Shown: positions 16,217-58,870 of the stretch, one piece after another
Layout of the letters: each line of letters begins with the position of its first letter
Position numbering within the stretch: the first letter of the stretch is position 1
Source: an uncultured Chloroflexia bacterium
GTDB taxonomy: Bacteria > Chloroflexota > Anaerolineae > Anaerolineales > UBA4823
Length of the DNA: 64,000 nucleotides
Direction: 5' to 3'
Assembly: GCA_963725685.1 (NCBI GenBank)
Contig: CAVRYZ010000008.1
Location: 398,709 to 462,708 of the forward strand
Made by a program: the position numbers and the translations under genes
Notes under the pieces: generated by a model
What the model was told of the DNA's origin: nothing
The model's database searches: none
The model's input: the letters and a program-made list of their open reading frames with translations, nothing else

Positions 16217-17188
16217 ATGACAGCCATCACCAAACAGGGAAACTATCCGGTTGTAAAAAAATCAGTTCCCACATTTTATTTTATTGGTGTGACCACCAGC
16301 AAGTCTTCGATTATGAAGGTTTTCCCCTTGTGGATGAAAATCCTGGGACGGGAAGAGGTGGTGATGGAGGGCGTGGATTGCAAAATCCATGATGACGCCG
16401 AGGTCTACCGGAGAGCGGTTGCGCAAATCAAATATGATCCCCTTTCATTAGGCTCGCTCGTAACCACGCACAAGATTGACCTGCTCAACGCCGCTCGAGA
16501 TATGTTTGAATATCTTGATCCATATGCGCTGATCACCGGTGAAGTATCCAGTATCTCGAAATTGGATGGCCGTTTGGAAGGGCACGCCAAGGATCCGATC
16601 ACTTCAGGCTCAAGCCTGGATGCGATCATCGAACCTGGTTATTTTGCCAGGACGCATGCTGAGGTACTGTGTTTTGGTGCGGGAGGCTCGGGTGTTGCCA
16701 CCCTGCTGCACCTGATCAACAATAAAGATAGGGGCGACCGACCGAGTAAATTCACATTCGTGAACCGTTCTCAAGGGCGGTTGGAGCACGCAAAAGAAAT
16801 GGTGGGAAGTTTAAAAACCGATATCGCCATCGATTACATCTGCAATTCAGACCCCGCGATTAACGATAAAATAATGGAGAAATTCCCGCCGCATAGTATC
16901 ATCATCAATGCCACCGGCATGGGTAAGGATACCCCTGGCTCACCCATCACCTGGCAGGGGAAATTCCCCGAGAACAGCATTGCCTGGGAATTCAACTACC
17001 GGGGTGAATTAGATTTCATGCACCAGTCCCTGGCCCAGGTAGAGAGCCGTCATGTTAAAGTTGAGGATGGATGGCTGTATTTTGTGCATGGTTGGACGCA
17101 GGTGGTTGCTCAAGTCTTACATTTTGACCTCACCCCAACCTTGTTCGACCAGCTGAATCAAGCTGCCTCATCGGTCAGAGGAAAGTAG
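16217..17188 (+). CDS. Shikimate/quinate dehydrogenase-family protein (substrate unknown)
   Basis: 323 aa. Segments are AroE-like: LVTTHKID (compare NVTxPxK), GAGGSGVA (NAD(P) loop) and INATGMG. The call is family level only. Confidence 0.5.
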   Translation: MTAITKQGNYPVVKKSVPTFYFIGVTTSKSSIMKVFPLWMKILGREEVVMEGVDCKIHDDAEVYRRAVAQIKYDPLSLGSLVTTHKIDLLNAARDMFEYLDPYALITGEVSSISKLDGRLEGHAKDPITSGSSLDAIIEPGYFARTHAEVLCFGAGGSGVATLLHLINNKDRGDRPSKFTFVNRSQGRLEHAKEMVGSLKTDIAIDYICNSDPAINDKIMEKFPPHSIIINATGMGKDTPGSPITWQGKFPENSIAWEFNYRGELDFMHQSLAQVESRHVKVEDGWLYFVHGWTQVVAQVLHFDLTPTLFDQLNQAASSVRGK

Positions 17189-32300: not shown

Positions 32301-35300
32301 TAGACATTGATGTGACCTTCGGCGCCTTGGGTGTATTCAAAACCACGCAAGGCAACGAAATTGGAATTCGTTGCAGCCTCGACGGCAGCTAGGGTATTTG
32401 CCCATTCGGTGTCGTCGATAGCGTAGGAATGATCGGAGATGGCCATGAAGTCAAACCCGGCAGCAGCACCGGCTGCCAGTGCCTGATCAGGTGTGCCACT
32501 ACCATCTGAATAGCTGGTGTGATTGTGGATATCTCCAAAATAAACCAGCATTGGTGGTTCGATCGAGGTTTCGAAGGACCATATTTTATCTTCGCCCAGG
32601 GTCAACCCGGCCCAATCGGCGGTGGTGCCCAAGACGGTGGCGGTGTAGAGGGTGGTTGCCAGGAACTTCGCATCGGGATTGAGCGTGACCACAAAATTGG
32701 CAGGATTATAGCTCATGTGGTACGGCACTATGCCGAACGGTCCTTCAAGGATGAAGTGTTCCCCGTCCAGTGATAACGGGTGCATATCTTCGGTGAAAGT
32801 GATGACCACATTCGCAGTCAAAGCCACCTCGGTCGCATCCTCCAGGGGTGAAACCGCCACGATGGCTGGAGGGGTGATATCCGCAGCGCCGGTGGTAAAA
32901 CTCCACTCGTAGGGAGCAGATAGAGGAATGGCGTATACGTCGGTTACGCCCGTGGTCAGCGTGGCGGTATAAACGGTAAATGGAGACAGGCTCACATCAG
33001 GGGTGAAACTGGCGGTAAATGAGCCTGCATCATAGCTAACTACCCCACTGACTGGTCCAACCGAATCAACCAGCGTAAATGTGGCTGGGGTGAGGCTCGC
33101 TGGATCCATCGCCTTGCTGAAAGTCGCTTCCAGCGGGCGATAGAGATTGACGTCGAGCGCAGCCTCCGCAGGATTCGTAGCGGTTACGGTAGGTGGTCGC
33201 AGGTCGACGATATCGGCCTGAAAGCGCGGGTTTACCTGGGGGGTGTCATAGGCGCCGCTCATGCCGGTCACACGCATCAGCATGGGGAAGGTGAATGAGC
33301 TCGTGTCTATCCCGGTCGTCCCGTAAATATATACGGAAGTTTCTCCGCTGCCATCGTTGATCAAGATGGTCTTATTTGTGGTACCCGTCATAGATAATGC
33401 TGTACCCTGGATCTGCACCAGCCTGCCCTGCGTAGGAGCCAGCCCACCGGTGGGGGTAACCAGCGGGGCGGGGACGGTGCCCGTGTCTATCCAGTTGATA
33501 TAGTCTATGGTGCTTAATTCAAGCAAGGCATGATAGACACTCATGCTGCCCTTGATCTGAACCAGGTCGCCTAAAGACAACGGCGGTATTACAGTACCGT
33601 AGGGTGGGTAAATGTACAAACCACCTGTCTCGTCCTGGATGGCAAATGAACGCGTTGCGAAAGAACCGGGTAGAACCGTAACATTGCCACGGATCGTTCC
33701 ATACCAGCCTGCGCCACCTGCACGTGCCTCGGCAATTGTTGAGAGGATATCCGGGTCGATGACGGAGGTCGTCACCGGGTCACCCAGCGTGCCCGTTATC
33801 CAGTTGGAGGCCCACACGCCGTACATGTCATTTACCAGCGTGCCTTCCGTTGCCGGGGCAGTTACGGTGATCGTACGGATGGCGGTGGTTCCATCAGCCA
33901 TGCTGGGGATGGTCCAGCTGATTACATTGGTGTCGATCAGCTGACCGCCATCTGATGCAGATACGAAGGTGACACTGATAGGCAGGCTGTCGGTGATTAC
34001 CACCTGAGTGGCAGGTTCCCCCAGGCTGTTAACCGCCGAGAGAGTGTAATCGAAAGTCTCATTGACACTTACACTGCTGGGGGCTGTTTTGCCGATCGTC
34101 ATCTCAGCAATGGGTGGTACATCGACACATCTAGCGGCAGCAGCCCAGTTGGTGGCTACCCGGATGCCATCTACTGTTCCGGCGGGAGAGGATGTGGCTC
34201 CTCCCTGGCGAATTGCAACAGCAGACATAGCAACCGATGTCCCGATGAGGCTGACAGACACCAGTGGTATGGAAGGTTCTGTATAAGAGCAGGTATCCAA
34301 GACATACAAAGCACTATCGAGGTTGTTAATATTGTACTTGGCTACAACCAGATAGGTTGTGCCGAAGGCGAAGTTGGTGGCACCATATATGGGTGTACCG
34401 GAGGATGGAAACAAGCCAAAGTTCAGTTGTCCGCCCGTATTTTTGGCGTAAACCCTGGCACGCAAGTTCGAGGTCCCAGTATCTTTGATGTGCAGGAAAT
34501 AATCGCCTGTGGTGGTGGCCGAGGACAAATTGACCAGAGCTGCAAAGTATACAGTTCCAGTGCTCTGCGCGGCAAAGCTGCGGTTTACGTCCTCACCTCC
34601 CAAAGAAGTAAAGGTGGCGGAACCAGCGATCCCTGACGAGGCATAAGATGGCATTGAAAGGCTGGTGGGGGCATACTGGACTGGATTGGTACCTGCGCCT
34701 GAATGGGCGATCCAGTTCCCAGCGCTCACTACCGTCAAATCACCCGCCGAACCGCCATAGCTGAAATTCTCATCTAGAAGTGGGGGTGGAACATAACACG
34801 TTGCTGCGTCAGCCCAATTGTCTGCCACTCGAATGCCATCCACCGTCCCGTTGGGACCAGTGGTGGCTCCGCCCTGTCGAATGGCAATCCCGAGGATGGA
34901 GGCCAAAGGTGTGCCTGTTGCAGAGGCGAGTGGCGCAGGCTCTGTGCTCGAACAGCTATCTAGGACAAACACATCGCTGGCACCGCTGACCTGATCATGT
35001 TTGGCTACCACCAAGTAGGTGGTGTTATAGGCGAAATTAGTCGTGCCGTATGTGGGGGTGCTGCTCGTGCCAATCCCGAACTGCAGCGCTCCTGCGGAAT
35101 CACGGGCGAAGAGACGTGCCGCGAAGCCAGTGGTCGAATTTTTAAAGTGGATAAAATAGTCACCGGCGGTGGTCGCCATGGACAAATTGACCAGAGAGGC
35201 ATAATACACTACACTTCCGGTCTGTTCTGCAAAGGTGCGGTTCGCATCCTCTCCCGAAAGATCAAAGACCGCGGAACCGGCGATGCCTGATGAGACGTAA

Positions 35301-35590
35301 GACGGCATCACCAGGCTGGTAATGGCATACTGGATTGGATTGGTGCCCGCACCGGAGTGGGCAACCCAGAGTCCACCGCTCATTACGGTGAGGTCACCCG
35401 CAACTCCACCATAGTCAAAGTTCTCATCCAGAAGTGGGTCGGCCAACACACCCGATTGGTGGCGCACAGCCGGTAATCCACTGGCTTGAGCCTGACTGGT
35501 GGGCGAAAAAGCGGGCAGGATCAGCATGAGCACCATGATGGCTCGAGCTGATATGCTTAAATAATGACGGTACTTCCCTTGTAAGTGCAT
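29351..35590 (-). CDS. Giant secreted multidomain protein (2079 aa)
   Basis: Domain order, N- to C-terminal:
- N-terminal signal/TM segment IMVLMLILPAFSPTSQAQA.
- Two tandem copies of a 218-aa module.
- DUF11-like repeat (also one near the C-terminus, EVSTPELVIPGSLVTYTIVLSNTG).
- OB-fold-like segment FAIQDETGGLYIYP.
- SbsA-Ig-type domains (PPTVTATNPAE.., PPAIVAVSPLE..).
- PHP motif FGDIHNHTSYSDG...ISDHS...NADTHT.
- CARDB-like domain.
- Second OB-fold-like segment LYVQDETGGITVHAP. Confidence 0.85.
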   Translation of the reverse strand: MHLQGKYRHYLSISARAIMVLMLILPAFSPTSQAQASGLPAVRHQSGVLADPLLDENFDYGGVAGDLTVMSGGLWVAHSGAGTNPIQYAITSLVMPSYVSSGIAGSAVFDLSGEDANRTFAEQTGSVVYYASLVNLSMATTAGDYFIHFKNSTTGFAARLFARDSAGALQFGIGTSSTPTYGTTNFAYNTTYLVVAKHDQVSGASDVFVLDSCSSTEPAPLASATGTPLASILGIAIRQGGATTGPNGTVDGIRVADNWADAATCYVPPPLLDENFSYGGSAGDLTVVSAGNWIAHSGAGTNPVQYAPTSLSMPSYASSGIAGSATFTSLGGEDVNRSFAAQSTGTVYFAALVNLSSATTTGDYFLHIKDTGTSNLRARVYAKNTGGQLNFGLFPSSGTPIYGATNFAFGTTYLVVAKYNINNLDSALYVLDTCSYTEPSIPLVSVSLIGTSVAMSAVAIRQGGATSSPAGTVDGIRVATNWAAAARCVDVPPIAEMTIGKTAPSSVSVNETFDYTLSAVNSLGEPATQVVITDSLPISVTFVSASDGGQLIDTNVISWTIPSMADGTTAIRTITVTAPATEGTLVNDMYGVWASNWITGTLGDPVTTSVIDPDILSTIAEARAGGAGWYGTIRGNVTVLPGSFATRSFAIQDETGGLYIYPPYGTVIPPLSLGDLVQIKGSMSVYHALLELSTIDYINWIDTGTVPAPLVTPTGGLAPTQGRLVQIQGTALSMTGTTNKTILINDGSGETSVYIYGTTGIDTSSFTFPMLMRVTGMSGAYDTPQVNPRFQADIVDLRPPTVTATNPAEAALDVNLYRPLEATFSKAMDPASLTPATFTLVDSVGPVSGVVSYDAGSFTASFTPDVSLSPFTVYTATLTTGVTDVYAIPLSAPYEWSFTTGAADITPPAIVAVSPLEDATEVALTANVVITFTEDMHPLSLDGEHFILEGPFGIVPYHMSYNPANFVVTLNPDAKFLATTLYTATVLGTTADWAGLTLGEDKIWSFETSIEPPMLVYFGDIHNHTSYSDGSGTPDQALAAGAAAGFDFMAISDHSYAIDDTEWANTLAAVEAATNSNFVALRGFEYTQGAEGHINVYNTVRHAVRTNTGCSYCDYTPNLEAGSTVMGFYQWASTTGMIGLDPAGTVMQFNHPGWINFNDWTYHPEVSDIARMEEVGNGNGTSYDFSEDEYIRSLDYGWKVGASNNADTHTAYWGTNTDHRTGVLMSGLTKEALLEALRERRTFATEDKNFSLRMKANGAWMGSEIANSGTIQFEIEGDDPDGELASLVQIITDQGEVAALYEPTNASFTWTPLLDISTGVHYYYVRVTQADSDRIVSSPVWTLGSEDISITDLVIQPTIPTIYNPSLLTVRVTNRNIAPRTVTVSMDVNGVFLSSVEVYAPGNGDATANFSWQPVSVGDAVVTAQLIGAPEGDNPDDNTSLLNLTVTDEHLPLILIDAGHGNMNAQGSEMQMLVNDLSDHQYNVLKNLDELTVTDLNPTVVKLLIITAPQTAYTNAELTAIGDYVAAGGSLWLCGLSDYTGSVPWAATVANRENDILAAIESHTGAQINMRMNDDEILEGNDNNGYVFGPIWGDFPSEYTTTIGINVEAMASWSVNSLRGRTPGTPLTADTPDVHIVVQGDLDTGYSDDSYHNPFHTSNTDADGAGDAYIYNPTWVYPNDPPEPPVGALPVPMAAVTQLPNGAGRILLYGDSNDAFTTYAYTAGDGKQNELFNLEAAMWLMGEPLHLSTIAEARAQTELNQPDNLNKLVWIEGEITAAYGEFFNVLYVQDETGGITVHAPAGDIDPTSYTRGTKVRVVGTIGIYNGDTEIEFFEAEMVQVITPSTGEVAPLPFTTYQASLEENQGWLAVITATVTTKVGEDTLFVDDGSGLVRVFLDGYNGDFADIQVYDLVRVTGLVSEDGDGQRIRVRNHGMHPEYSDDVVKLPQELALGISKEVSTPELVIPGSLVTYTIVLSNTGNGLVLQVTLTDVLPEGINFVAFLEDGGATEDGGTISWTGNLPAGADVTVVFTASVDTDFSLYGETIVNTAHYESSILNGEATAVFTVAAPNKVWLPILRK
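34127..35434 (-). repeat. Tandem duplication of a roughly 218-aa (654-nt) N-terminal module inside the giant gene
   Basis: Copy 1 covers aa 53-270 (LLDENFDYGGVAGDLTVMSGGLWVAHSGAGTNPIQYA...GTVDGIRVADNWADAATC). Copy 2 covers aa 271-488 (LLDENFSYGGSAGDLTVVSAGNWIAHSGAGTNPVQYA...GTVDGIRVATNWAAAARC). The copies are collinear over their full length. Confidence 0.8.
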
Positions 35591-35850: not shown

Positions 35851-36759
35851 ATGACCCCTTTCGCGATTGCTCTCGTCACGGTCTCGGCCTTTATCCACGC
35901 TTTTTGGAATCTGCTGGGTAAACGGCAAAATCCATCCGTGGCGTTCTTTTTTGTCGCCTCAGTATTTGCAGCGATTTGTTTCTCACCCCTGCTGCTGGTT
36001 TACCGCAACACATTTGCCTTGATCCCAGGGCGGGTATGGATTTGGTTGGGGCTTACCGCCTTATTTGAGCTGATCTATTACATCGGCTTGGCGGGGGCAT
36101 ACCGCCATGGTGACATGTCGGTGGCTTATCCGCTGGCGCGGGCGATTCCGGTCATCCTGGTGGCATTAATTGCCACGCTGCTGGGTTTGGGGAAACCGCT
36201 CAGCCTGATGGGTGTGTTGGGCATCCTGGCGGTGGCAATCGGTTGCCTGCTCCTGCCCCAACGCAGCCTGCGCCATCTGCAGCTCTCCAGTTATCTAACC
36301 GCCTGCTGCTTGCTGGCAGGTGTGGCTGCCATCGGCACCACCGGGTATACCCTGGTGGATAACCAGGTGCTGGCTGATCTATTATCTGCACCTGGGATTG
36401 GGCTGAACCGGATCGAGATAGCCTTTTTTTACCTGGCATTAGACAGCGTCTTTATTGCCGTAGTGATGGGTGGGTATATTCTGTTCGCGCGCTTTGAACG
36501 GATTGAGCTACATAAAACATGGGAGATGAACAGAAAGATGGCGCTGATTACCGGTCTGCTGATCGTGGGCACATATGGCCTGGTGCTGGCCGCCATGGCT
36601 TATGCCACCAACGTCAGTTATATTGCCGCGTTTCGCCAGCTTAGCATCCCATTGGGAGCCATCTTGGGCATCCTGGTCCAAAAGGAACCAGCTTACCCTC
36701 CCAAGCTGGCCAGTATCGGTATTATTTTTGTGGGTTTGATCCTGATTGCCCTGGCATGA
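35851..36759 (+). CDS. EamA/DMT family transporter
   Basis: 302 aa with about 10 hydrophobic helices in a duplicated EamA-like pattern. The ATG lies 9 nt after an extended -10 element, so the mRNA may be leaderless. Confidence 0.8.
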   Translation: MTPFAIALVTVSAFIHAFWNLLGKRQNPSVAFFFVASVFAAICFSPLLLVYRNTFALIPGRVWIWLGLTALFELIYYIGLAGAYRHGDMSVAYPLARAIPVILVALIATLLGLGKPLSLMGVLGILAVAIGCLLLPQRSLRHLQLSSYLTACCLLAGVAAIGTTGYTLVDNQVLADLLSAPGIGLNRIEIAFFYLALDSVFIAVVMGGYILFARFERIELHKTWEMNRKMALITGLLIVGTYGLVLAAMAYATNVSYIAAFRQLSIPLGAILGILVQKEPAYPPKLASIGIIFVGLILIALA

Positions 36760-36907
36760 AGGGGTGGTCTACAGCAAATTCATCAGCTCCTAAGCGATGC
36801 GATAAATTAATTCCTCATAATGAAAGCTATGCTCCAACAAGCACCCCGGGAACCCAGGTTGCCGTGTATGATAAAATAGTGCCCACATTGAGCAAAGGAG
36901 CAGATTA

Positions 36908-37723
36908 ATGATAGATCAACCTAAAGGAGAAAAGCCCGCCCTGACGGTCATTATCCAGTCTTGGTGGACTCCCGCGCTGGTTGTGGTCGCGCTGGTGGTT
37001 GGGCTGTTGGCGGGTTATTTCGGTCACCCGTTGTTAGCAAAAGACTCGCAGCCCACGCAACCCGTTGTAGTGGTTAATACGCCGGTACCCTCTGATCCCA
37101 CTGGCCAGCTTTCAAGCCCGACAGCCACCGTGAATCCTACCATCGCTGCGATCGACAGTACTGAGAAATTGATGGCATACCTTGTCCAGAATACCACCCA
37201 CTTCAAAGGCGATCCCAACGCCACGGTCACAATCATCGAATTTAGCGATTATCAATGACCATACTGCGGGCGTTTTGCCGCTGACGCGGGTCGTCAGATC
37301 GAAACAACTTACGTAGATACAGGCAAAGTGCGTTTTGGTTATTTCAACTTTGCCTTCCTGGGAGATGAATCACAGTGGTCAGCTGAAGCTGCTGAATGTG
37401 CTGGTGATCAAGATGCATATTGGGAATTTCATGATTACCTGTTCACCCATCAGAGTGGTGAGAATGGGGGTGCGTTCAGCAAAGATAACTTGAAAGGCTT
37501 CGCAGCCAGCATGAAATTGGATACAAAGGCATTCAATACCTGCCTTGACTCGGGAAAATATACTCAGCTCGTCCAGGATCAAACCAATATTGGCCGGCAA
37601 TTAGGGGTATCCTCCACGCCTACTTTTGCCGTCAATGGGAAGCCTGTGGTCGGGGCGCAATCTTTCGATACTTTCAAAGCTACCATCGATGGGCTTCTAA
37701 ACCCACCTGCCCCAACCCCGTAG
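36908..37723 (+). CDS. Membrane-anchored DsbA-like thiol:disulfide oxidoreductase with an in-frame TGA (candidate Sec) at the first position of the CxxC motif
   Basis: Track ORFs 36908..37258 and 37328..37723 share one frame. The read-through sequence is ...ATVTIIEFSDYQ-TGA(37256-37258)-PYCGRFAADAGRQIETTYVDTGKVRFGYF..., with no other stop. DsbA/BdbD proteins normally read F-S-D-(Y/F)-Q-C-P-Y-C here. There is an N-terminal TM anchor. Confidence 0.7.
37281..37297 (+). promoter_or_regulatory. Candidate bacterial SECIS-like hairpin downstream of the DsbA-like TGA
   Basis: CTGACG-cgggt-CGTCAG. The 6-bp stem starts 23 nt after the TGA and the loop contains G and U. An alternative weaker hairpin lies at 37264-37283. 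Confidence 0.35.
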
Positions 37724-37746
37724 TTGATACGCAGTTTTAGTATCTC

Positions 37747-37786
37747 AACGAGCAGACGCCACATGCCTGCTCGTTGTTGTTTTATT
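37747..37786 (+). terminator. Rho-independent terminator after the DsbA-like gene
   Basis: AACGAGCAG-acgccacatgc-CTGCTCGTT followed by GTTGTTTTATT. Confidence 0.6.
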
Positions 37787-40454: not shown

Positions 40455-41306
40455 TTACAGGAAGCTCTCCAGCAAGGAACCTACTTCCGCCATGGTGAAT
40501 ACAGGTCCGTCCACACAGATCAGCTTGGTGCCAAGGTTGCAGCGCCCGCACTTGCCAATCCCACAGTGCATACGCGCTTCCAGCGTGACGTAATTCTGTT
40601 CAGGCAGGAAGTTAAGCTTTTCCACCAGCACGCGATTGACAAAGTGGATCATGATGGGCGGCCCGCAGGTGATGGTGATCGCATTGCGTGGCGAGGGAGC
40701 CACTTTTTCCAGCAGCTGGGTGATCAGACCCACACTGTGGCTCCAGGTTTCGTCAGCCTGATCAACGGTCAGGTGCAGCTCTGTGTCTGGAGTTGCGCGC
40801 CATTCATCATATTCATCCGTGAAGACCAGCATGGATGGGTTCCTGGCTGCCCAGAGAATTTGAAAATACCCATAATCCCTACGGTTGGCCATCACCGACT
40901 GGATCACCGGGCGCAGGGGGGCACCTCCGATGCCTCCCCCGATCACGATCAGGTTCTTTCCCTTAAACTTATCCATGGGGAAGCCATTTCCCATGGGGCC
41001 GCGAACTCCCACCATGTCTCCCACGCCCAGCTCATGCAGGTCGGTGGTGACTGAACCCAGGCGGTTGATGGCGAAATCGATCGTGGCATCCCCATTCTGT
41101 GGGATATTGGCGATCCCAAATGGGGCTTCACCCACTCCGAAGGCTGAGACGAAAGCAAATTGCCCTGGTTTATAGTCTTGGAAGGCCTTGCCACCGCCAT
41201 TAAGCATCTCGACTCGAAAGAGCTTGATCTCTGTGGCGATATCTTTAACCTCGATGAGTTTTCCGAGGTAAGGCAGCATGGGGTTGGTTTCCAGTTTGTC
41301 TGTCAT
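40455..41306 (-). CDS. FAD/NAD(P)-binding ferredoxin-reductase-type subunit with a C-terminal [2Fe-2S] motif (HydG/AsrB/FlxA-like)
   Basis: 283 aa with a PyrK/sulfhydrogenase-gamma-like fold. Motifs are RLGSVT, LIVIGGGIGGAPL and the C-terminal CGIGKCGRC. Confidence 0.8.
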   Translation of the reverse strand: MTDKLETNPMLPYLGKLIEVKDIATEIKLFRVEMLNGGGKAFQDYKPGQFAFVSAFGVGEAPFGIANIPQNGDATIDFAINRLGSVTTDLHELGVGDMVGVRGPMGNGFPMDKFKGKNLIVIGGGIGGAPLRPVIQSVMANRRDYGYFQILWAARNPSMLVFTDEYDEWRATPDTELHLTVDQADETWSHSVGLITQLLEKVAPSPRNAITITCGPPIMIHFVNRVLVEKLNFLPEQNYVTLEARMHCGIGKCGRCNLGTKLICVDGPVFTMAEVGSLLESFL

Positions 41307-41309
41307 CGG

Positions 41310-42311
41310 TTACCTCCTGCCAACATACCCCAATACTTCGGTGATATCCACATTCACCGGGCAGGCATCGATACAACGTCCGCAGCCTGTACATGATACC
41401 GGACCGTAATGGATGGGGAAATAATAGAACTTGCAGAAGAAACGGTTGCGCAGGCGCTGATTCTTCATAAATCGGGGGTTGTGCCCACCTGCCACCCGCC
41501 GGTATGGGATGCCGTTGCACGAATCCCAGCAGCGGATGCGCTCGGATTGATTTTGCCCATTGCCCCCCGCTAGAACCTCGTCGCGTACATCGAAACAACG
41601 GCAGCTGGGGCAAACATAGGCACAGATCCGGCAGCTCAAACAGCGCTCGGCCATCTCAGCCCAAAAGTCATCATTAAACCTGGCTGGCCATACTTCCTTG
41701 GGAGGAACTTTTAGCTCACGTTTTCTGGCATGGGTGGGATGAGGCCGAATCTCAGACAGTCCATCGAAAATGGGAAACTTCTTGCTGATATTCTCGCCCT
41801 TCTCGGTGATGATCTCTGCCACATAACCGCCGTTGGAGGCAGTTAGCATGATATCCATTCCGGTGGGGTCATCCGGAGAGCCACCCACATTGGTACAAAA
41901 GCAGCTGGCACCCATGGATGGGCATGCCAAACCGATGAGGGTGGTGTTCTCTCGACGGCGCGCATAGTATGGATCCACAGGTTCATTCTCAATGAACAGC
42001 GCGTCCAGGGTGAGCAATCCCCTGGCATCACAAGGGCGGACGCCAAAAATAATCGATTTACCCTCTGGGATGGTTTCAGTTAACTTCACCTGCCCGGCAA
42101 GTTTTTCAATCAGCATCAGGCGCTCGGTAGGTGGGAAGAAAACTTCCTTAACTGACATGAATGAACGTACAAAGTCCCATACCACCTCATGCGTATCAGC
42201 CACCGGGCGGTAAAGGATGTTGCCGGCAATGTCCAATGGGGCGATCAGGGTTTGATCATGCGCCAGGCGGTCAAGCCAGGCCGCCAGCTCCTGGTGAGTC
42301 AGGTAGTTCAT
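41310..42311 (-). CDS. 4Fe-4S dicluster subunit (sulfhydrogenase beta/AsrA/FlxB-like)
   Basis: I trimmed the start to ATG 42311 (MNYLTHQELAAWL), which overlaps the upstream stop as ATGA. Motifs are FGVRPCDARG, CFCTNVGG, CLSCRICAYVCPSCRC and CTGCGRCIDACP. Confidence 0.75.
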   Translation of the reverse strand: MNYLTHQELAAWLDRLAHDQTLIAPLDIAGNILYRPVADTHEVVWDFVRSFMSVKEVFFPPTERLMLIEKLAGQVKLTETIPEGKSIIFGVRPCDARGLLTLDALFIENEPVDPYYARRRENTTLIGLACPSMGASCFCTNVGGSPDDPTGMDIMLTASNGGYVAEIITEKGENISKKFPIFDGLSEIRPHPTHARKRELKVPPKEVWPARFNDDFWAEMAERCLSCRICAYVCPSCRCFDVRDEVLAGGNGQNQSERIRCWDSCNGIPYRRVAGGHNPRFMKNQRLRNRFFCKFYYFPIHYGPVSCTGCGRCIDACPVNVDITEVLGYVGRR

Positions 42312-43726
42312 GGCAGGTTCTCCTCTCCGCCCAGGATGGTCACAAAGGGTGGCGGTACGGCTGCCATCCCGGCCTGGTAGCTGAAAATAGACTCCATCTC
42401 CTGCGCCATCTTGCGGTGGATCAGGCTGAGGGGGAGGTCCATCGGGCAGGCGCGTTCGCACTCATTACAGCCCACACAGCGCCCTGCCAGGTGGTATGCT
42501 CTCCCCAGGTGGAAGGCACGCTTTTCATCCACATCAATTCCCATGCCCACCCAGAGTGAATCGTCGCGCTCATACAGGCAGATGGGGCAATCACACATCG
42601 GGCATGCCTGCCGGCAGGCGTAGCAACGAATGCAGCGGTCGAACTGGCTGAGCCAGAAGTTCATCCTTTCAACAGGTGTGAGGGCATTCAGGCGTTCGAT
42701 CCCGGGGTAAACATGCTCGGGGGGGATTTCGCGATAAGTCGTTTCAGGGTCTCCAATGAGCGTATCGTATACCACCGGTGTACGCACGTTACAGGCTGCG
42801 CAGCGCGTCTGGATCGCTCCACTTTTATCGTTATTGAACCCCGCTCCCTGCCGGATGCCATCGCAGGCCATGCCAATCACATACACCTGCTCACGTAAGA
42901 ACCGATTCTCAGCCAGCAGGACGTTTATGGAACGGCTGTCGCATGGTTTTACTACTACGGCTGCTTTGGGTATGCTATCAGGCTTCTTTTTCTTTCCGCC
43001 ATCCGTTCCCCAGCCCAGTTTTTTACTCAAGTAAGCAGTCAGGTTATGGGTGCAGTCCTTGTTCCAGACCAGGCGTTCAACATTTTCGGGCTGGTGGATA
43101 AATGCGGGGCGTGTCCGTCCCCTGGGCCCCACTTCATAACCGATCACACTCTCCACCTGTTTGTTGGCCAGTAAATCTCGGGCGGCTGATCGCAAAGCCT
43201 CGGTTTGCTGTTCGTGAACGGGTGTGTTATAAACGGCATGCTTGGGCTGTTCATCATTAAAAGCTGAATAACGGTGGCTGATAGGTTCCTGTTCCCACAC
43301 AAAATGCGCCTGGCGCTCGGAAACTTTCCAATGGATAGGTCCGAGAGCACGCACAGTATCGGTAAAATCAGTGGTGATGTGCGAGTAACGCTCCCCTTCC
43401 GAAGCAGACACCCAATCAAGCCGGATGCGTTCAGGTTCAAGGCCGGCATAGGCCAGCAAGGCGCGCAAGATAGGCAGACGCTTGGCTGCCCGGTGGTTGC
43501 CGGTATTGTAATGGCACTCGCCGATATGGCAACCCAATACCAGCACACCGTCCGCCCCCTGCTCGAAGGTGCGCATGATCAGCTCGGGTGAAACCCGCCC
43601 TGAGCATGGCACACGGATGTCGCGGATATTAGCCGGAGATTTCAAGCGGGCGATGCCAGCGGTATCGGCACCGGTGTAACTGCACCAGGTGCACAGATAA
43701 GCAATGATCTTGGGTTCAAATGGCAT
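42308..43726 (-). CDS. MvhD-like (hydrogenase delta/FlxD-like) domain fused to an Fe-S cluster domain
   Basis: 472 aa. The N-terminal roughly 135 aa read IIAYLCTWCSYTGADTAG...VPCSGRV...GADGVLVLGCHIGECHY, an MvhD pattern. The C-terminal part has CIRCYACRQACPMCDC and CVGCNECERACP clusters. A strong Shine-Dalgarno (TAGGAGGTGG) is present. Confidence 0.8.
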   Translation of the reverse strand: MPFEPKIIAYLCTWCSYTGADTAGIARLKSPANIRDIRVPCSGRVSPELIMRTFEQGADGVLVLGCHIGECHYNTGNHRAAKRLPILRALLAYAGLEPERIRLDWVSASEGERYSHITTDFTDTVRALGPIHWKVSERQAHFVWEQEPISHRYSAFNDEQPKHAVYNTPVHEQQTEALRSAARDLLANKQVESVIGYEVGPRGRTRPAFIHQPENVERLVWNKDCTHNLTAYLSKKLGWGTDGGKKKKPDSIPKAAVVVKPCDSRSINVLLAENRFLREQVYVIGMACDGIRQGAGFNNDKSGAIQTRCAACNVRTPVVYDTLIGDPETTYREIPPEHVYPGIERLNALTPVERMNFWLSQFDRCIRCYACRQACPMCDCPICLYERDDSLWVGMGIDVDEKRAFHLGRAYHLAGRCVGCNECERACPMDLPLSLIHRKMAQEMESIFSYQAGMAAVPPPFVTILGGEENLP

Positions 43727-43737: not shown

Positions 43738-46700
43738 CTATGGGTTCAGGATCCCGGGAACAACCGGTTCAGCCGCCAATGCCCCGATCATCTCATTGAC
43801 GATTTGTTGATCATCGAAATGAATGAGGGTAATGGCTTTATCACGGCAGGTTGAGGCGCAGGTACCGCAACCTTTACACAGGTATGTATTGACTGAAGCC
43901 ACGCTTTCTTTCAGTTCGATGGCGCTGTATGGGCAGGCATTGACACACAAGCCACAGCCGGCACAACGCTGCAGGTTCACTGAGGCAACCGATGGATCCA
44001 GGGCAATCGTACCCTGATCGAGCAGAGACAGGGCGGCGGCGGCTGCGCCACCTGCCTGAGCCACGCTGTCTGGGATATCCTTCGGGCTCTGGCAGGCGCC
44101 AGCGACATAAATGCCCTCGGTGGTAGTTTCCACAGGAGCTAGCTTGGGATGTTTCTCGAGGAAGAACCCATCCGGGCTGCGGCTGATCCCGAATATGTGA
44201 GCCACCTGGGCAGCATCCGCCTGCGCCTCCAGACCTGTGGATAGGATAACCATATCCACTTCGACGTGGTCCGGCTGACCATGAAAGGCTTCGTCCCATT
44301 TCACAACGAGATGCCCATCCTGAGCCTGGATACTTCTGACATGCCCGTGGTAGAAATTAACCCCTCTTGCACGGGTGCGGTTATAAAACTCTTCGTAGTC
44401 TTTACCGAAGGAGCGCATATCGCGGTAGATTTCATGTACTTCAGCGCCCACATATTCGTGCACCAGCTGCGCCAGTTTGAGAGAGTACATGCAGCATGCC
44501 CGTGAACAATACTCGTTATATTTGTCGTCCCGGCTGCCCACACAGTGCACAATAGCAACCCGCCTGGGTGGCTGGCCATTTTTAAGGGTGACCCTTCCAA
44601 GGGTCGGTCCACCAATATTGATCAGACGCTCAAATTCCATCGAGCTAAGCACATTATCCAGCTGACCATACCCCAGCTCAGGAATGCGGGATGGGTCAAA
44701 ATCTTTGAAACCTGTTGCCAGCACGATTGTGCCTACCTTGAGATCCAGATAGCTATCCTTCATATCATGGTTGATGGCACCGCGTTCACACGCAGACAGG
44801 CATTCCAGGCATTCGGAACAGATACCACAACGCAAACAGCGCTCGGCTTCGGTAATTGCCTCTTCTTCTGTAAATGCCAGATCGACTTCATTGAAGTTGT
44901 TTTCCCGCGCTTTCGCTGGAATGGTGCGGGTCTTGGTACGGGCATTGTCCGTTGCCCAGCCAATTTCCATCTTTTCCGCCACTTCTTCCTTGGTAAAAGT
45001 GGCGATGGGCAGCTTGGGTGGTTCCTGAACTCCTTCAACCCCACGCAGGAAGCGATCGATGCACCTAGCCACATGATGACCTTCTCCGATGGCGTCCACG
45101 ACGAAGAATGTGGTCCCGCGGCGAACGTCACCTGCCACGAACACACCTGGCATGCTGGACATCATTTCATCATCGGTTTCGATACCCATTGAGCTGAGCT
45201 TGCGGATGCGAGTATCGGCAGGCAGGAATGTGAAATCTGGCTGCTGACCGACGGCCCAAATGACCAGGTCACATGGAATTACATGTTCAGTGCCGGGGAT
45301 TTCTTCCACCTGGCGTTTGCCATTGACGATCGCGCCGACCTTGGCTTCCACGCAACGAATCCCAACGATTTGATTTAACTGGATGACAACCTCTTTGAAC
45401 ACCCGGTTGCGGATGATTTCAACCCCCTCTTTGACAGCCTCATCCATCTCGTTGAATGACGCGCGCATACCACGACACACAATTTTCACCTTGGGGCTGC
45501 CCAGTCGAATGGACACGCGGGCAGCATCGAGGGCCACGTCTCCAGCCCCGATCACTGCGATTTCGCGACCACTCAAGTTGAGCTTTTCTCCCAGGCAAGC
45601 CCGGCGAAGCAGGTCAAGGCTGAGCCAGTTATCGGGATGCTCTGTTCCCGGAATGCTCAGCTTCCAGGCACTATGAGCACCTGTGGCAATAATCACCGCT
45701 TCATAACCCTGGTCAAACAGCCCGGGGATATCGTCCACGCGCGTGCTCAGGCGCATTTCCACGCCTTCATCGACAATTTGCTGAATCTCCCAATCCAGGC
45801 GGTCATAGGGCAGGCGGTGAGGTGGAATTCCGACCCGCATCATGCCCCCGGCAATGGGAAGAGAGTCAAAAACTGTGGCACTGTAACCGAAGCGCACCAG
45901 ATCCAAAGCTGCGGTCATGCCAGCCGGACCAGCCCCGATGATGGCTACTTTCTTACCGGTGGGGATGGGAGCGTGTGAAAATGGAGTGCCCACCAGTGAT
46001 TTATCGCGCATGTTGGGCAGCTCGTCACGGTGAGCAAAAGCCCAATCGGCGACGAACCACTTCAACTTCATGATGCTGACGGGTTCATCATATAACCCCC
46101 GACTGCATTGTTCCTCACAGCGACGGTTGCACACCCGCCCGCAAACCGAGGGGAATGGATGCTCGCGCCGGATAGCCCAATAGGCATCGGCATATCGCTT
46201 TTGCTTGATCAGGGCGATATATCCCTGGGCACGCTGGTCGGTGGGGCAGGCAGCCCGGCAGGGTGCGATGCCACGTTTTTCGATTACATATGCCCCGGGA
46301 ACTGACTGAGCTGAATTGCGGTAGATGGCTTTGCGGGTGCTTAACCCCCGGTCAAAGGTGTTAATCACATCCACCGGGCAGACGTCGGCGCACTTTCCGC
46401 AACCTGTGCATTGCGATTCATCCACAAAACGGGCCTTCCTGCGTACTCGCACCTGGTAATTGCCAACATACCCGGATACATTCTCAACTTCACTGTAGGT
46501 GAGCAGGCTGATGTTTTCGTGACGTCCAACGGACGTCGTTTTGGGGGTAAGTATTCAAGCCGCACAGTCTAGCGTGGGAAAGGTCTTGTAGAGCTGGGCC
46601 ATATGCCCGCCGATACTTGGCTCACGCTCCACCATATAGACCTTCTTGCCTGCATCTGCCAGGCGCAGGGCAGCCTCGATCCCGGCAATACCGCCGCCCA

Positions 46701-47148
46701 GCACTAATGCTGATTGTTCCATATCAACCGTGCGCATGTTCAGCGGGCGGTGATGGTGCACCCGGCTGACCGCTGCGCTGACCATGTGTTTGGCTTTTTC
46801 GGTTGCCAGGGCAGGATCGTCCACCACCCATGAGCAGTGCTCACGAATGTTGGCCATCTGGAAGAAGAATGGATTCAACCCACCTTCTTTACAAGCCCTG
46901 CGAAAGGTAGGCTCATGCATCAATGGCGTGCATGAGGCCACTACCACGCGGTTCAATCCCTGCTCGCGGATATCCTGCTTGATCAAGTCTTGACCAGGGT
47001 CGGAGCACATATAGGTGTAATCGCGTGCCAGAACAACATTTTCCAAATTTCGGGCATACTCCACCACGGCAGTTACATCCACCTTGGCAGCGATATTGGT
47101 ACCGCAGTGACATATGTAGACCCCGGTCTTTATTTTGGAGAGGTTCAT
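43738..47148 (-). CDS. hdrA: HdrA-like flavoprotein (1136 codons) with an in-frame TGA (candidate Sec198) and an inserted NfnB/GltD-like NAD(P)H-binding module
   Basis: Track ORFs 46555..47148 and 43738..46452 share one frame (102-nt gap, no other stop). The read-through is ...KTFPTLDCAA-TGA(46557..46555)-ILTPKTTSVGRHENISLLTYSEVENVSGYVGNYQVRVRRKARFVDESQCTGCGKC.... The insert at about 45040-46272 carries the GltD-type Cys motifs and two dinucleotide loops (IIGAGPAGMTAA, VIGAGDVALDAA). Confidence 0.8.
46521..46537 (-). promoter_or_regulatory. Candidate SECIS-like hairpin downstream of the HdrA(1136) TGA
   Basis: The reverse strand reads GACGUCC-guu-GGACGUC. The perfect 7-bp stem starts 18 nt after the UGA, with a GUU apical loop. 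Confidence 0.5.
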
Positions 47149-49169
47149 GCCACCTCCTCTTCAAGCAACACGGGCTTTTTCAAAACCGACATGATTCCAA
47201 CGATTTCTGCCAGGATTTGATCCTGGGTAAAGCCATTCTGGATCGGTGCATGCACCAGGCAAGCGGCCACGCAGGCACCGCAACCTTTGCATAACACCTC
47301 GTTCACGTGTGCCACGATATGCCCTTCTAACTCCACCATATCGATCGCATGGTATGGGCATTGGCTCTCACAGGTACGGCATCCACAGCATATGGTTTGG
47401 TCAATATAGGTGGTGAAAGGTTCCAGGGTGACGTGCCCGGCATCCATAAGCGAAAGGGCTGCCGCGGCGGCTGCGGCACCTTGGGCTACGCTATCAGGAA
47501 TATCTTTGGGACTCTGGCAGGTGCCTGCCAGGTAGACGCCGTCGGTGGTCGTTTCCACCGGAGCCAGCTTGGGATGTTTTTCTAGGAAAAAGCCATCTGG
47601 ACCGCGGCTGATGCTGAAGGTTTGCGCCACATGGGCCGCATCCGGTTGGGGTTCTATCCCTGTGCTCAGCACAACCATATCCACCAGCTGCTCGTTGGGT
47701 TCACCTGTGAACAGGTCGGTTGAGGTGATTTTTAGCTGTCCATTATCTGGTGTGACCTGTAAACCACTCCCACCGGCTTCCTGGTCAAAGCGGGTGAAGT
47801 GCACCCCTGACCGTGCCACACGCTCGTAAAAAGCTTCGTAGCCTTTACCAAAGGCGCGCATATCGCGGTAATACTCGTGTACTTCTGCGCCCACATAATC
47901 GCATATCAACTGTGCCAGCTTGAGCGAGTACATGCAGCACACCCGTGAGCAATATTCGTGATACTCTTTGTTCCGGCTGCCAACACAGTGTACGATAGCA
48001 ACCCTTTCCGGTTTACGGCCGTCCTTGAGCCGTACCTCCCCGGTGGTGGGCCCACCGGTGTTGATCAAACGCTCCAATTCCATGCTGGTGAGCACATTAT
48101 CCAGCTCACCATAACCGTATTGTTGAATCCGGCGGGCTTCAAAATCCTTGAACCCCGTCGCCAGGATGATTGCTCCAACTTCCAGGTCAAGATGCTCTTC
48201 CTGCTGCTCGAAATTTATTGATCCGGTCTGGCAGAACTTTTCACACGCCCGGCATTTGCCCTTTTGGAAATAGGCACAATTTTGGGTGTCTATGACCGGA
48301 ACACGCGGCACGGCCTGTGCGAACGGGAAATATATCGCCGAGCGATTACCCAATCCCAAATCGAACTCGGATGGGATCTTTTTCCAAGGGCATTTTTCAA
48401 CGCAGGTACCGCATCCTGTGCAGGTGCTCTCGTCCACGTAGCGTGGTTTTCGGCGCACTTTTACGGTGAAATTGCCTACATATCCGGAAACGGATTCGAC
48501 CTCGCTGTAGCTCAGCAGGGTGATGTTTTCGTGGCGTCCAACGGACACCATTTTGGGGGTGAGAATTCAGGCCGCACAGTCGAGGGTAGGAAAGGTCTTA
48601 TAAAGTTGGGTCATATGCCCGCCGATGCTCGGCTGCCTCTCCACCAGGTAAACATGCTTGCCGGTGTCAGCCAGGCGCAGGGCGGCCTCAATCCCGGCAA
48701 TACCCGCACCCACCACCATGGCGCTTTGTTTCATCTCCACCTGGCGGGCTTCCAGCGGCTTTTGGTATTGCACCCGCCTGACAGCGGCAGACAGGAGGGC
48801 TTTAGCTTTGTGGGTCGCGCTGGGCATGTCTTCCGACACCCATGAGCACTGCTCGCGGATGTTGGTCATATGGAATAAAAATGGATTTAACCCCGCATCA
48901 GCACAAGCTCGCCGGAAGGTGGCTTCATGCATCAAAGGCGAACAAGAAGCCACTACAATACGATCCAGGCCCTCATTACGGATATCATCCTTGATGAGAG
49001 CCTGGCCAGGGTCGGAACACATATAAGCATAATGGCGGGCAACCAACACATTCTCCAATGAGGCGGCATGGTTGGTCACGGCTTCAACATCCACCATCGA
49101 GGCGATATTGGTGCCGCAATGGCAGATATAAACCCCGATCTTGGGGCTGCCTTTATTGGTTGGTTTCAT
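47145..49169 (-). CDS. hdrA: Heterodisulfide reductase subunit A-like flavoprotein (674 aa) with an in-frame TGA (candidate Sec201)
   Basis: Track ORFs 48567..49169 and 47145..48551 share one frame (15-nt gap). The read-through is ...KTFPTLDCAA-TGA(48569..48567)-ILTPKMVSVGRHENITLLSYSEVESVSGYVGNF.... The N-terminal Cys domain, FAD loop VVGAGIAGIEAAL and ferredoxin motifs are intact. The stop overlaps the next hdrA start as ATGA. Confidence 0.85.
48533..48549 (-). promoter_or_regulatory. Candidate SECIS-like hairpin downstream of the HdrA(674) TGA
   Basis: The reverse strand reads GGUGUCC-guu-GGACGCC. The 7-bp stem includes one G-U pair. Position and loop are the same as in the paralog, with compensatory base changes. 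Confidence 0.5.
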
Positions 49170-58192: not shown

Positions 58193-58195
58193 TTT

Positions 58196-58855: not shown

Positions 58856-58870
58856 GAAAAGGAGACAGCC

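What the first reader, a model, noticed from the sequence alone, without database searches (positions are those of the whole stretch)
36908..37723. DsbA-like oxidoreductase with an in-frame TGA at the first Cys of its CxxC motif (candidate U-P-Y-C selenoprotein)
- The ORF track shows two pieces, 36908..37258 and 37328..37723, in the same frame. The only stop between them is the TGA at 37256-37258.
- Read-through gives ...NATVTIIEFSDYQ-[TGA]-PYCGRFAADAGRQIETTYVDTGKVRFGYFNFAFLG....
- DsbA/BdbD-type thioredoxin-fold proteins carry F-S-D-(Y/F)-Q-C-P-Y-C at this point. The TGA therefore replaces the nucleophilic Cys codon.
- A stop at this position with frame and downstream sequence conserved fits selenocysteine better than decay.
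- A 6-bp hairpin (37281-37297, loop CGGGU) begins 23 nt after the TGA.
- The protein has an N-terminal membrane anchor, so the redox centre would be extracytoplasmic. I believe that is uncommon among characterised bacterial selenoproteins.
Basis: partly seen in the sequence, partly recalled or inferred. Interest (0 to 1): 0.8.

Follow-up and report, generated by a model that had tools for sequence, protein, structure and literature searches.

The report
Selenocysteine DsbA-like oxidoreductase gene in Anaerolineae
This is almost certainly a real selenoprotein gene: a membrane-anchored DsbA/BdbD-type disulfide enzyme whose first active-site cysteine is replaced by selenocysteine encoded by UGA, but it belongs to a kind of bacterial selenoprotein that has been known since 2004-2006.

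Summary
One gene (36908..37723, +) has a single in-frame TGA (37256-37258) at the first Cys of the CxxC motif of a Thioredoxin_4/DsbA domain. The Pfam match spans the TGA.

- **Codon survey:** among 163 related loci the aligned codon is TGA (52), TGT (66) or TGC (45), and nothing else. All 34 relatives with at least 60% identity carry TGA.
- **Coding constraint:** purifying selection continues downstream of the TGA.
- **SECIS-like hairpin:** a 17-nt hairpin (37281-37297, loop CGGGU) is conserved in 44 distinct Anaerolineae sequences. It is 99.6% paired, and 3 of its 6 pairs show compensatory changes. Cys forms lack it.
- **Genetic code:** TGA is an ordinary stop for 16 of 42 long ORFs in the window, so the code is standard.
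- **Other Sec candidates:** two HdrA genes in the same window carry TGA at the position of Cys197 of structurally solved HdrA, each followed by a hairpin.
- **Not testable:** selA, selB, selC and selD in the same genome could not be checked.

The best NCBIfam hit is NF041057, "thioredoxin-like (seleno)lipoprotein", which is the published "DsbG-like" UxxC selenoprotein family. The score is below the family cut-off, and the protein has a transmembrane anchor rather than a lipobox. Verdict: a genuine selenoprotein and a new member of a known kind, of modest interest.

The parts
36895..36900 (+). Shine-Dalgarno-like AAGGAG, 7 nt upstream of the ATG
   Evidence: Read directly from the sequence
36908..37723 (+). 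Complete selenoprotein gene: 271 codons including Sec117, with TAG stop at 37721-37723
   Evidence: Full-length Cys- and Sec-form homologues align end to end.
36968..37024 (+). Single N-terminal hydrophobic transmembrane anchor (residues ~21-39, TPALVVVALVVGLLAGYFG). There is no Cys, so no lipobox.
   Evidence: Hydropathy. The segment is conserved in homologues.
37190..37690 (+). Thioredoxin_4 / DsbA-like thioredoxin-fold domain (residues 95-261)
   Evidence: Pfam PF13462 at 132.2 bits and PF01323 at 64.1 bits. The closest solved structure is B. subtilis BdbD, 3EU3, E=3.9e-22.
37256..37258 (+). UGA read as selenocysteine (residue 117), the N-terminal nucleophilic position of the U-P-Y-C redox motif
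   Evidence: The aligned codon is TGA in 52 loci, TGT in 66 and TGC in 45. Homologues listed with 'W' here have TGA in their DNA.
37265..37267 (+). TGC for Cys120, the resolving Cys of the UxxC motif
   Evidence: Invariant in the alignment. It aligns to the second Cys of BdbD CPSC.
37281..37297 (+). 17-nt SECIS-like hairpin: 6-bp stem CUGACG/CGUCAG with apical loop CGGGU. The loop starts 28 nt after the UGA.
   Evidence: Across 44 distinct sequences, 99.6% of cells are paired, 3 of 6 pairs have compensatory double changes, and 0/500 shuffles reach the observed score. Cys forms have a median of 2/6 pairs at the same register.
37397..37399 (+). Codon of Cys164, an invariant second-pair cysteine in the helical insert
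   Evidence: Invariant column. A structural disulfide with Cys212 is inferred, not tested.
37541..37543 (+). Codon of Cys212, the invariant partner of Cys164
   Evidence: Invariant column. The role is inferred.
37746..37786 (+). Terminator-like hairpin (10-bp stem) followed by a U-rich tract, just after the stop codon
   Evidence: Fold: -20.2 kcal/mol, z = -2.57. The consensus scan missed it because the loop is longer than 8 nt.

Best explanation
The gene 36908..37723 encodes one 271-residue, N-terminally membrane-anchored thiol:disulfide oxidoreductase of the DsbA/BdbD (Thioredoxin_4) type.

**Decoding.** The UGA at 37256-37258 is decoded as selenocysteine, giving a U-P-Y-C active site. The ribosome reaches the UGA while the 17-nt hairpin 22 nt downstream (37281-37297, loop CGGGU) is bound by SelB·GTP·Sec-tRNA(Sec). 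Sec is inserted and translation continues to the TAG at 37721. This mechanism is inferred by analogy with the bacterial SECIS/SelB system.

**Function.** The catalytic domain is expected to face the outside of the cytoplasmic membrane (inferred from the single N-terminal anchor and from homology to BdbD/DsbA). There Sec117 and Cys120 would cycle between selenol/thiol and selenenylsulfide to exchange disulfides with exported proteins. Whether it acts mainly as an oxidant, a reductant or an isomerase is not known.

**Shown:** gene unity; the Sec/Cys codon pattern; coding constraint past the UGA; a conserved, covarying hairpin specific to UGA forms; a standard genetic code; co-occurring UGA-HdrA genes.

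**Inferred:** the actual insertion of selenium, the membrane topology, and the direction of the redox reaction.
For: 1. **One gene.** The Pfam domain match spans the TGA. Full-length Cys homologues are colinear. BdbD aligns across the site, with CPSC opposite (U)PYC.
2. **Sec/Cys signature.** Among 163 loci the aligned codon is TGA in 52, TGT in 66 and TGC in 45, with no TGG, TAA or TAG. The search patterns ended before this codon, so they did not bias it. TGA is found in 34/34 relatives of at least 60% identity, 12/15 at 49-60%, and 6/114 below that.
3. **'W' explained.** The 'W' in database proteins P0001, P0002 and P0007 is TGA in the DNA, so these are code-4 gene calls.
4. **Translation continues.** Downstream of the TGA, differences at codon position 3 far outnumber those at positions 1 and 2 (1028 against 253 and 221 in the first 60 codons). 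Synonymous changes outnumber nonsynonymous ones (808 against 410). The frame stays open for at least 140 codons in 40 of 41 loci.
5. **Hairpin.** It is conserved with compensatory changes: A-U to G-C in 6 sequences, U-A to A-U in 2, and C-G to A-U in 1. Of all cells, 99.6% are paired and 0/500 shuffles reach the score. Sliding the 3' partner column by 1-3 positions destroys pairing. Some compensations pair an amino-acid change with a synonymous change (D to G with CGU to CGC; Q to L with GCU to GCA). Cys forms have a median of 2/6 pairs and a maximum of 4/6.
6. **Standard code.** TGA terminates 16 of 42 long ORFs in the window.
7. **The lineage reads UGA in other selenoprotein families.**
   - Two HdrA genes in the window have TGA in FPTLDCAA*ILTPK, aligned to Cys197 of 5ODC_A. 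Each is followed by a hairpin about 17-34 nt after the UGA.
   - Six syntenic MAG loci carry both the DsbA TGA and the HdrA TGA.
   - HdrA, DsbA-like and DsbG-like are published selenoprotein families.
8. **SelD link.** A distant TGA-form locus (L061) has a SelD gene, itself with an in-frame TGA at the Cys17-equivalent position, 8 kb away.
Against: - No tRNA-Sec, selA, selB or selD was found in the 64-kb window or in the flanks of the Anaerolineae loci. The rest of the genome could not be searched.
- No Rfam SECIS family matches, even at E up to 10.
- On the single window sequence, the folding energy downstream of the TGA is no better than shuffled controls.
- The stem is short, at 6 bp.
- The NCBIfam (seleno)lipoprotein model scores below its cut-off (167.4 against 190 bits).
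- There is no protein-level evidence.
Confidence: 0.9

Rival explanations
1. The UGA is recoded, but to cysteine rather than selenocysteine. This could happen through a SelB-dependent Cys-tRNA with a UCA anticodon, or through thiophosphate-derived Cys on tRNA(Sec). The protein made would then be an ordinary CPYC DsbA.
For: Every comparative signature found here would look identical under this reading: the conserved UGA, the SECIS-like hairpin and the coding constraint. No Sec-synthesis genes could be shown in the same genome. That such Cys-recoding systems exist is recalled from the literature. It was not verified here, and the paper I checked turned out to be about SepRS/SepCysS.
Against: It would need a rarer system than standard Sec decoding. 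HdrA and DsbG/DsbA-like proteins are established Sec families. A distant TGA-form locus sits next to a SelD gene, which makes selenophosphate.
Confidence: 0.04
2. The TGA is a genuine stop. The gene would then be a pseudogene, or split into a 116-residue N-terminal fragment and a separately initiated 131-residue C-terminal fragment starting at the GTG at 37328.
For: The ORF finder reports two pieces. Single-sequence folding is unremarkable. One relative (L017) has an additional in-frame stop 103 codons further on.
Against: - The TGA is conserved in 52 loci down to ~38% identity, always at the Cys column.
- The 23 codons between the TGA and the GTG are strongly conserved as protein, with third-position variation.
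- The thioredoxin fold cannot be formed by either piece alone, since the Pfam match spans both.
- The other 40 of 41 loci have no further stop.
Confidence: 0.03
3. The TGA is a sequencing or assembly error, or a recent point mutation of TGC/TGT (or TGG), in this one genome.
For: TGA is one substitution away from TGC, TGT and TGG. Database homologues appeared to have Trp at this site.
Against: Independent assemblies from many samples and MAGs have the same TGA. The apparent Trp is TGA in the DNA. No locus has TGG.
Confidence: 0.005
4. The organism uses an alternative genetic code in which UGA is a sense codon (code 4 or 25).
For: Several gene callers translated the homologues with UGA as Trp.
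Against: TGA terminates 16 of 42 long ORFs in the window. The only convincing in-frame TGAs are at Cys positions of three redox proteins.
Confidence: 0.005

Closest known systems
DsbG-like selenoprotein family = NCBIfam NF041057 'Rcas_1661 family thioredoxin-like (seleno)lipoprotein' (UxxC)
   Same: It is the best NCBIfam hit, aligned almost end to end (protein 50-261 against profile 35-245 of 247). The redox motif is the same UxxC. It is a thioredoxin-like extracytoplasmic protein, and the family is named after a Chloroflexota (Roseiflexus) gene.
   Different: The score of 167.4 bits is below the 190-bit cut-off. The N-terminus has no Cys or lipobox, so the protein would be held by a transmembrane anchor rather than a lipid. 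It forms its own Anaerolineae clade with conserved synteny.
DsbA-like selenoproteins (form 1, PF01323, UxxC) of the Sargasso Sea, Anaeromyxobacter, Desulfovibrio and Desulfotomaculum
   Same: It has a PF01323 match. Sec is at the first position of the CxxC, with a bacterial SECIS-like hairpin downstream whose small apical loop contains G.
   Different: Those proteins were assigned to COG2761 (FrnE-like). This protein scores much better on Thioredoxin_4/COG1651-type models. The phylum is also different.
Bacillus subtilis BdbD (PDB 3EU3), a membrane-anchored DsbA-type oxidase
   Same: It is the closest solved structure (E=3.9e-22). The CxxC and the T-P (cis-Pro) loop are aligned. From general knowledge of BdbD, it also has an N-terminal membrane anchor with the catalytic domain outside the cell.
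   Different: BdbD has Cys (CPSC) and works with BdbC. This protein has Sec (UPYC), an extra invariant Cys pair (C164/C212), and no partner gene identified nearby.
E. coli fdhF-type bacterial SECIS / SelB recoding
   Same: There is a hairpin inside the coding sequence shortly after the UGA, with G/U in a small apical loop. At 17 nt it is comparable in size to the minimal SelB-binding fdhF hairpin; that comparison rests on memory.
   Different: The sequence differs. The stem starts 22 nt after the UGA. No Rfam SECIS model matches.

Membership tests
Bacterial selenoprotein gene (UGA-Sec recoding) | In-frame UGA aligned with Cys in homologues | tested here: met
   The aligned codon is TGA in 52 loci, TGT in 66 and TGC in 45. 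Protein alignment.
Bacterial selenoprotein gene (UGA-Sec recoding) | The sequence downstream of the UGA is under coding constraint and the frame stays open | tested here: met
   Codon position 3 differences far exceed positions 1 and 2, synonymous changes exceed nonsynonymous ones, and 40/41 loci stay open for at least 140 codons.
Bacterial selenoprotein gene (UGA-Sec recoding) | A stem-loop immediately downstream of the UGA with a small apical loop containing G (bacterial SECIS features as described in PMC1088965) | tested here: met
   6-bp stem with 5-nt loop CGGGU; the loop starts 28 nt after the UGA. It covaries and is specific to UGA forms. The published numeric spacing range is recalled from memory and was not checked.
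Bacterial selenoprotein gene (UGA-Sec recoding) | selA, selB, selD and tRNA-Sec present in the same genome | not testable with these tools
   None were found in the window or in 35 related loci. The window could not be extended. Indirect support comes from two UGA-HdrA genes in the window and from SelD next to a distant UGA-form locus.
Bacterial selenoprotein gene (UGA-Sec recoding) | Selenium demonstrated in the protein | not testable with these tools
   Needs 75Se labelling or mass spectrometry.
NF041057 Rcas_1661 family thioredoxin-like (seleno)lipoprotein (= DsbG-like selenoprotein) | HMM score at or above the curated cut-off (190 bits) | tested here: not met
   167.4 bits, E=4.1e-49.
NF041057 Rcas_1661 family thioredoxin-like (seleno)lipoprotein (= DsbG-like selenoprotein) | UxxC redox motif | tested here: met
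   U-P-Y-C. Motif as listed.
NF041057 Rcas_1661 family thioredoxin-like (seleno)lipoprotein (= DsbG-like selenoprotein) | Lipoprotein signal peptide with a lipobox Cys | tested here: not met
   There is no Cys anywhere in residues 1-116. A single hydrophobic anchor is present instead.
DsbA/BdbD-type thioredoxin-fold oxidoreductase (Pfam PF13462 / PF01323) | Pfam score above the gathering threshold | tested here: met
   PF13462 scores 132.2 against 23.2; PF01323 scores 64.1 against 25.6.
DsbA/BdbD-type thioredoxin-fold oxidoreductase (Pfam PF13462 / PF01323) | CxxC active site and conserved T/V-Pro (cis-Pro) loop in register with a solved member | tested here: met
   The alignment to BdbD 3EU3 places (U)PYC opposite CPSC and S-T-P-T opposite A-T-P-T. 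T237 and P238 are invariant.
DsbA/BdbD-type thioredoxin-fold oxidoreductase (Pfam PF13462 / PF01323) | Extracytoplasmic catalytic domain | tested here: inconclusive
   There is one N-terminal hydrophobic segment. Its orientation was not predicted with a dedicated tool.
DsbA/BdbD-type thioredoxin-fold oxidoreductase (Pfam PF13462 / PF01323) | Membrane redox partner (DsbB/BdbC/VKOR) | not tested
   None was seen among the window ORFs of at least 150 aa that were scanned. Small ORFs and the rest of the genome were not examined.

The most novel reading that the evidence does not exclude
In this Anaerolineae clade, Sec is fixed in the membrane-anchored DsbA-type catalyst: 34 of 34 relatives with at least 60% identity carry TGA. 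If this protein is the main extracytoplasmic disulfide catalyst, folding of envelope and secreted proteins in these anaerobes would depend on selenium supply. It would run on a selenenylsulfide, with the selenoprotein exported unfolded through the general secretory pathway rather than Tat. A less likely alternative that is also not excluded is SelB-type recoding of this UGA to Cys.
Probability: 0.2. Interest if true: 0.5.

Novelty: new member of a known kind. Interest (0 to 1): 0.3.

Why it matters
- **Annotation.** Sec-form genes of this clade sit in public protein sets either split in two or translated with Trp by code-4 gene calls. Recognising them fixes a systematic error across dozens of Anaerolineae MAGs.
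- **A defined SECIS for a little-studied class.** The work yields a well-supported SECIS for Anaerolineae: a 17-nt hairpin with covariation. The two HdrA hairpins add to this. Together they could seed a covariance model for finding further selenoproteins in Chloroflexota.
- **Biology.** A selenol in an exported disulfide catalyst could be useful for disulfide exchange under low-oxygen conditions. This idea is not new, because DsbA-like and DsbG-like selenoproteins have been predicted for two decades and remain uncharacterised biochemically.

Tried and rejected
- **Rfam SECIS.** A gathering-threshold search of the window and a permissive search around the site found no SECIS family, only chance snoRNA-like hits.
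- **Single-sequence folding.** Three stretches starting at or just before the TGA (the longest reaching ~100 nt past it) fold no better than shuffles. Only comparative analysis gave a signal.
- **tRNA-Sec.** ARAGORN found only tRNA-Arg in the window and no tRNA-Sec in 35 related loci.
- **selD/selA.** There were no hits in the window or the Anaerolineae flanks, and one SelD hit in L061.
- **Extending the window.** Looking up its first and last genes returned nothing on record.
- **The 'W' in the closest homologues.** I first considered a genuine WxxC family with a TGG-to-TGA mutation in the window. This was rejected because the DNA shows TGA and no locus has TGG.
- **Other same-frame TGA junctions.** The junctions at 1900 and 14547 are ordinary adjacent genes. 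Those at 46557 and 48569 proved to be HdrA Sec candidates.
- **Literature.** A search for 'Rcas_1661' gave nothing. PMC5424206 was read for UGA-to-Cys recoding but covers SepRS/SepCysS only.
- **Not attempted.** Structure prediction was skipped because sequence matches to Pfam and BdbD were already decisive.

Full report
**Observation.** The window has two same-frame ORFs, 36908..37258 and 37328..37723. Translating 36908-37723 gives a single internal stop, the TGA at 37256-37258, in the context IIEFSDYQ*PYCGRFAADAGRQIE. With Cys substituted for the stop, Pfam Thioredoxin_4 (PF13462, 132 bits) and DSBA (PF01323, 64 bits) match residues 95-261 and 108-260 as single stretches that span the stop. 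An AAGGAG lies 7 nt upstream of the ATG. A strong terminator-like hairpin follows the TAG.

**Is the TGA real and conserved?**
- A protein search returned 4314 relatives.
- The eight closest (64-79% identity) showed 'W' at the TGA column, and more distant ones showed Cys. This raised the possibility of a WxxC family with a TGG-to-TGA mutation in the window.
- Fetching the DNA for three of them showed TGA in every case. Gene callers had used a code in which TGA is Trp.
- Scans of the GTDB species-representative genomes and of JGI metagenomes gave 160 further loci. The search patterns ended before the codon in question.
- A tblastn-anchored read-out of the aligned codon over all 163 loci held gave TGA 52, TGT 66 and TGC 45, and nothing else.
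- By identity to the window protein, TGA is present in 34/34 relatives of at least 60% identity, 12/15 at 49-60%, and 6/114 below that. This sample is biased towards proteins with the EFSDYQ/GYFNFAF motifs. One search shows many Cys forms at 50-57% identity with EF(S/G)DFQC.
- TGA forms occur in about 20 species-level Anaerolineae/Chloroflexota MAGs, two loci of one Dehalococcoidia MAG, and one Acidobacteriota MAG.

This excludes a sequencing error and a private nonsense mutation.

**Is the sequence after the TGA translated?** I compared the window with the Anaerolineae TGA forms.
- In the first 60 codons after the TGA there are 253, 221 and 1028 differences at codon positions 1, 2 and 3. Synonymous codon differences number 808 against 410 nonsynonymous. 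This pattern matches, or is stronger than, the one upstream of the TGA.
- In 40 of 41 loci the frame stays open for at least 140 further codons.
- TGA terminates 16 of 42 long ORFs in the window, so the genetic code is standard.

**SECIS.** On the window sequence alone, folding energy is unremarkable, and no Rfam SECIS model matches. Comparative analysis is decisive.
- The hairpin CUGACG-CGGGU-CGUCAG lies at 37281-37297, with its stem starting 22 nt after the UGA and its loop 28 nt after.
- It is present in 44 distinct Anaerolineae TGA-form sequences, and 99.6% of cells are paired.
- Three of the six pairs show double compensatory changes: A-U to G-C in six sequences, U-A to A-U in two, and C-G to A-U in one.
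- None of 500 column shuffles reaches the observed covariation score. Sliding the 3' partner column by 1-3 positions collapses pairing to 6-64%.
- Several compensations couple an amino-acid change to a synonymous change (D to G with CGU to CGC; Q to L with GCU to GCA). That is what an RNA-level constraint superimposed on a coding sequence would produce.
- At the same register, Cys-form genes have a median of 2/6 pairs and a maximum of 4/6, against a median of 6/6 in TGA forms.
- The distant Dehalococcoidia/Acidobacteriota TGA forms carry a different 8-bp hairpin closer to the UGA. One compensatory change is visible by eye (AGCGUUUC/GAAACGCU against AGAGUUUC/GAAACUCU).
- A small apical loop containing G is the feature that the selenoproteome literature cites for bacterial SECIS elements.

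**Does this organism decode Sec?**
- *Direct search.* The window contains no tRNA-Sec. None of the ORFs scanned against Pfam looks like SelA, SelB or SelD. None was found in the flanks of related Anaerolineae loci. The window could not be extended. The direct test is therefore open.
- *HdrA genes.* Two more candidates lie 9-12 kb away on the minus strand. Two HdrA genes (49169..47145 and 47148..43738) each have one in-frame TGA in FPTLDCAA*ILTPK.
- The read-through product of the first matches HdrA of Methanothermococcus thermolithotrophicus (5ODC_A) over its whole length (E=5e-212). The TGA sits opposite Cys197, a ligand of the N-terminal Fe-S cluster.
- HdrA is one of the most widespread selenoprotein families.
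- Each HdrA TGA is followed by a 7-8 bp hairpin with a G/U-containing loop about 24 nt after the UGA. The two paralogues differ by compensatory changes.
- Six syntenic MAG loci carry both the DsbA TGA and the HdrA TGA.
- *SelD.* In the Acidobacteriota contig L061, a SelD gene lies 8 kb from the TGA-form DsbA. It has its own in-frame TGA at the Cys17-equivalent position.
- *Precedent.* Sec-containing formate dehydrogenases have been predicted in subphylum I Chloroflexi single-cell genomes.

**What the protein is.**
- The closest solved structure is B. subtilis BdbD (3EU3, E=3.9e-22). CPSC lies opposite (U)PYC, and the T-P cis-proline loop is aligned.
- A single hydrophobic segment (residues ~21-39) is the only candidate membrane anchor. 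There is no Cys in residues 1-116, so no lipobox.
- Cys120, Cys164 and Cys212 are invariant. I infer that C164/C212 form a structural disulfide.
- The gene lies in strongly conserved synteny in more than 20 loci: EamA transporter, Sec-dsbA, alanine racemase, EamA, then the HydG-like/Fer4_22/MvhD/HdrA cluster. It appears to be monocistronic.
- The most likely mechanism is SelB/SECIS-dependent insertion of Sec at residue 117, followed by export of the catalytic domain. Thiol-disulfide exchange would then proceed through a Sec117-Cys120 selenenylsulfide.
- Insertion of selenium, the topology, and the direction of catalysis are all inferred.

**Comparison with known families.**
- DsbA-like (UxxC, COG2761/PF01323) and DsbG-like (UxxC, COG1651) selenoproteins were described in the Sargasso Sea and complete-genome selenoproteome surveys. 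Both are listed in a 2026 review, which equates the DsbG-like family with NCBIfam NF041057.
- NF041057, 'Rcas_1661 family thioredoxin-like (seleno)lipoprotein', is the best NCBIfam hit for this protein. The match is near full length, but the score of 167.4 bits is below the 190-bit cut-off. The lipoprotein feature is also not met.
- I therefore do not file the protein as a member of NF041057. I file it as a transmembrane-anchored Anaerolineae relative within the known class of DsbA/DsbG-like UxxC selenoproteins.
From general knowledge, periplasmic Sec-containing formate dehydrogenases and [NiFeSe] hydrogenases are classic cases, and the NF041057 name already implies exported selenoproteins.

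**Verdict.** This is a genuine, conserved selenoprotein gene (confidence about 0.9) and a new member of a known kind. Its practical value lies in correcting annotation and in the well-supported lineage-specific SECIS. It holds little surprise for a specialist. Interest 0.3.

Noticed in passing
window 47145-49169 (-), TGA at 48567-48569: A canonical HdrA gene (674 codons) has one in-frame TGA in FPTLDCAA*ILTPK, opposite Cys197 of HdrA 5ODC_A. An 8-bp hairpin follows about 16-34 nt after the TGA. This is a second candidate selenoprotein gene in the window.
   Followed up: yes
window 43738-47148 (-), TGA at 46555-46557: A second HdrA-like gene (1136 codons) has the same TGA motif. A GltD-like Fer4_20/Pyr_redox_2 module is inserted between the HdrA N- and C-terminal parts. 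It resembles the bacterial hdrA_N-insert-hdrA_C arrangement mentioned in PMC1794560. It is followed by MvhD-Fer4, Fer4_22 and HydG/AsrB-like genes (40455-43726).
   Followed up: partly
P0001-P0008; loci L001-L003: Public protein sets hold the Sec forms of this DsbA translated with Trp at the TGA. These are code-4 gene calls on short contigs. It is a systematic annotation artefact that hides selenoproteins.
   Followed up: yes
L061:9014-10048 (-): On the Acidobacteriota MAG contig, a SelD homologue (40% identity to E. coli SelD) has its own in-frame TGA at the Cys17-equivalent position (ELASCAG*AGK). It lies 8 kb from a TGA-form DsbA.
   Followed up: partly
L030:4957 and L053:5644 (also L061, L120, L163): Distant TGA-form DsbA genes carry a different SECIS-like hairpin (AGCGUUUC-CGUGAY-GAAACGCU, starting ~10 nt after the UGA). 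One Dehalococcoidia MAG (W31_80) has two such paralogues.
   Followed up: partly
L017:10328 onward: This TGA-form relative has an additional in-frame stop 103 codons after the Sec codon, and its tblastn match ends early. It could be decay or an assembly error.
   Followed up: no
window 37274-37285 region (alignment A3 columns 19-30): A possible second small hairpin, GG(G)C...GCC, lies between the UGA and the main hairpin. Two sequences (L017, L020) change Phe to Trp (UUU to UGG) in a way that could extend pairing. RNAalifold supports only two invariant pairs.
   Followed up: partly
window 29351-35590 (-): A 2079-residue protein with a signal-like N-terminus, Big_5 and DUF11 domains lies two genes upstream of the DsbA gene, beyond the EamA gene at 35851-36759. 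It is a plausible exported protein. A homologue is present in L004 and L005.
   Followed up: no
window 4390-5721 (-) and 16217-17188 (+): Two long ORFs (443 and 323 aa) inside a sugar-catabolism cluster have no Pfam match at E<=1e-5.
   Followed up: no
window 57707-60103 (+): Genes for Rieske, cytochrome b and a cytochrome b C-terminal/cytochrome c fusion form a bc-type complex. They are followed by FHA-domain and PP2C phosphatase genes.
   Followed up: no
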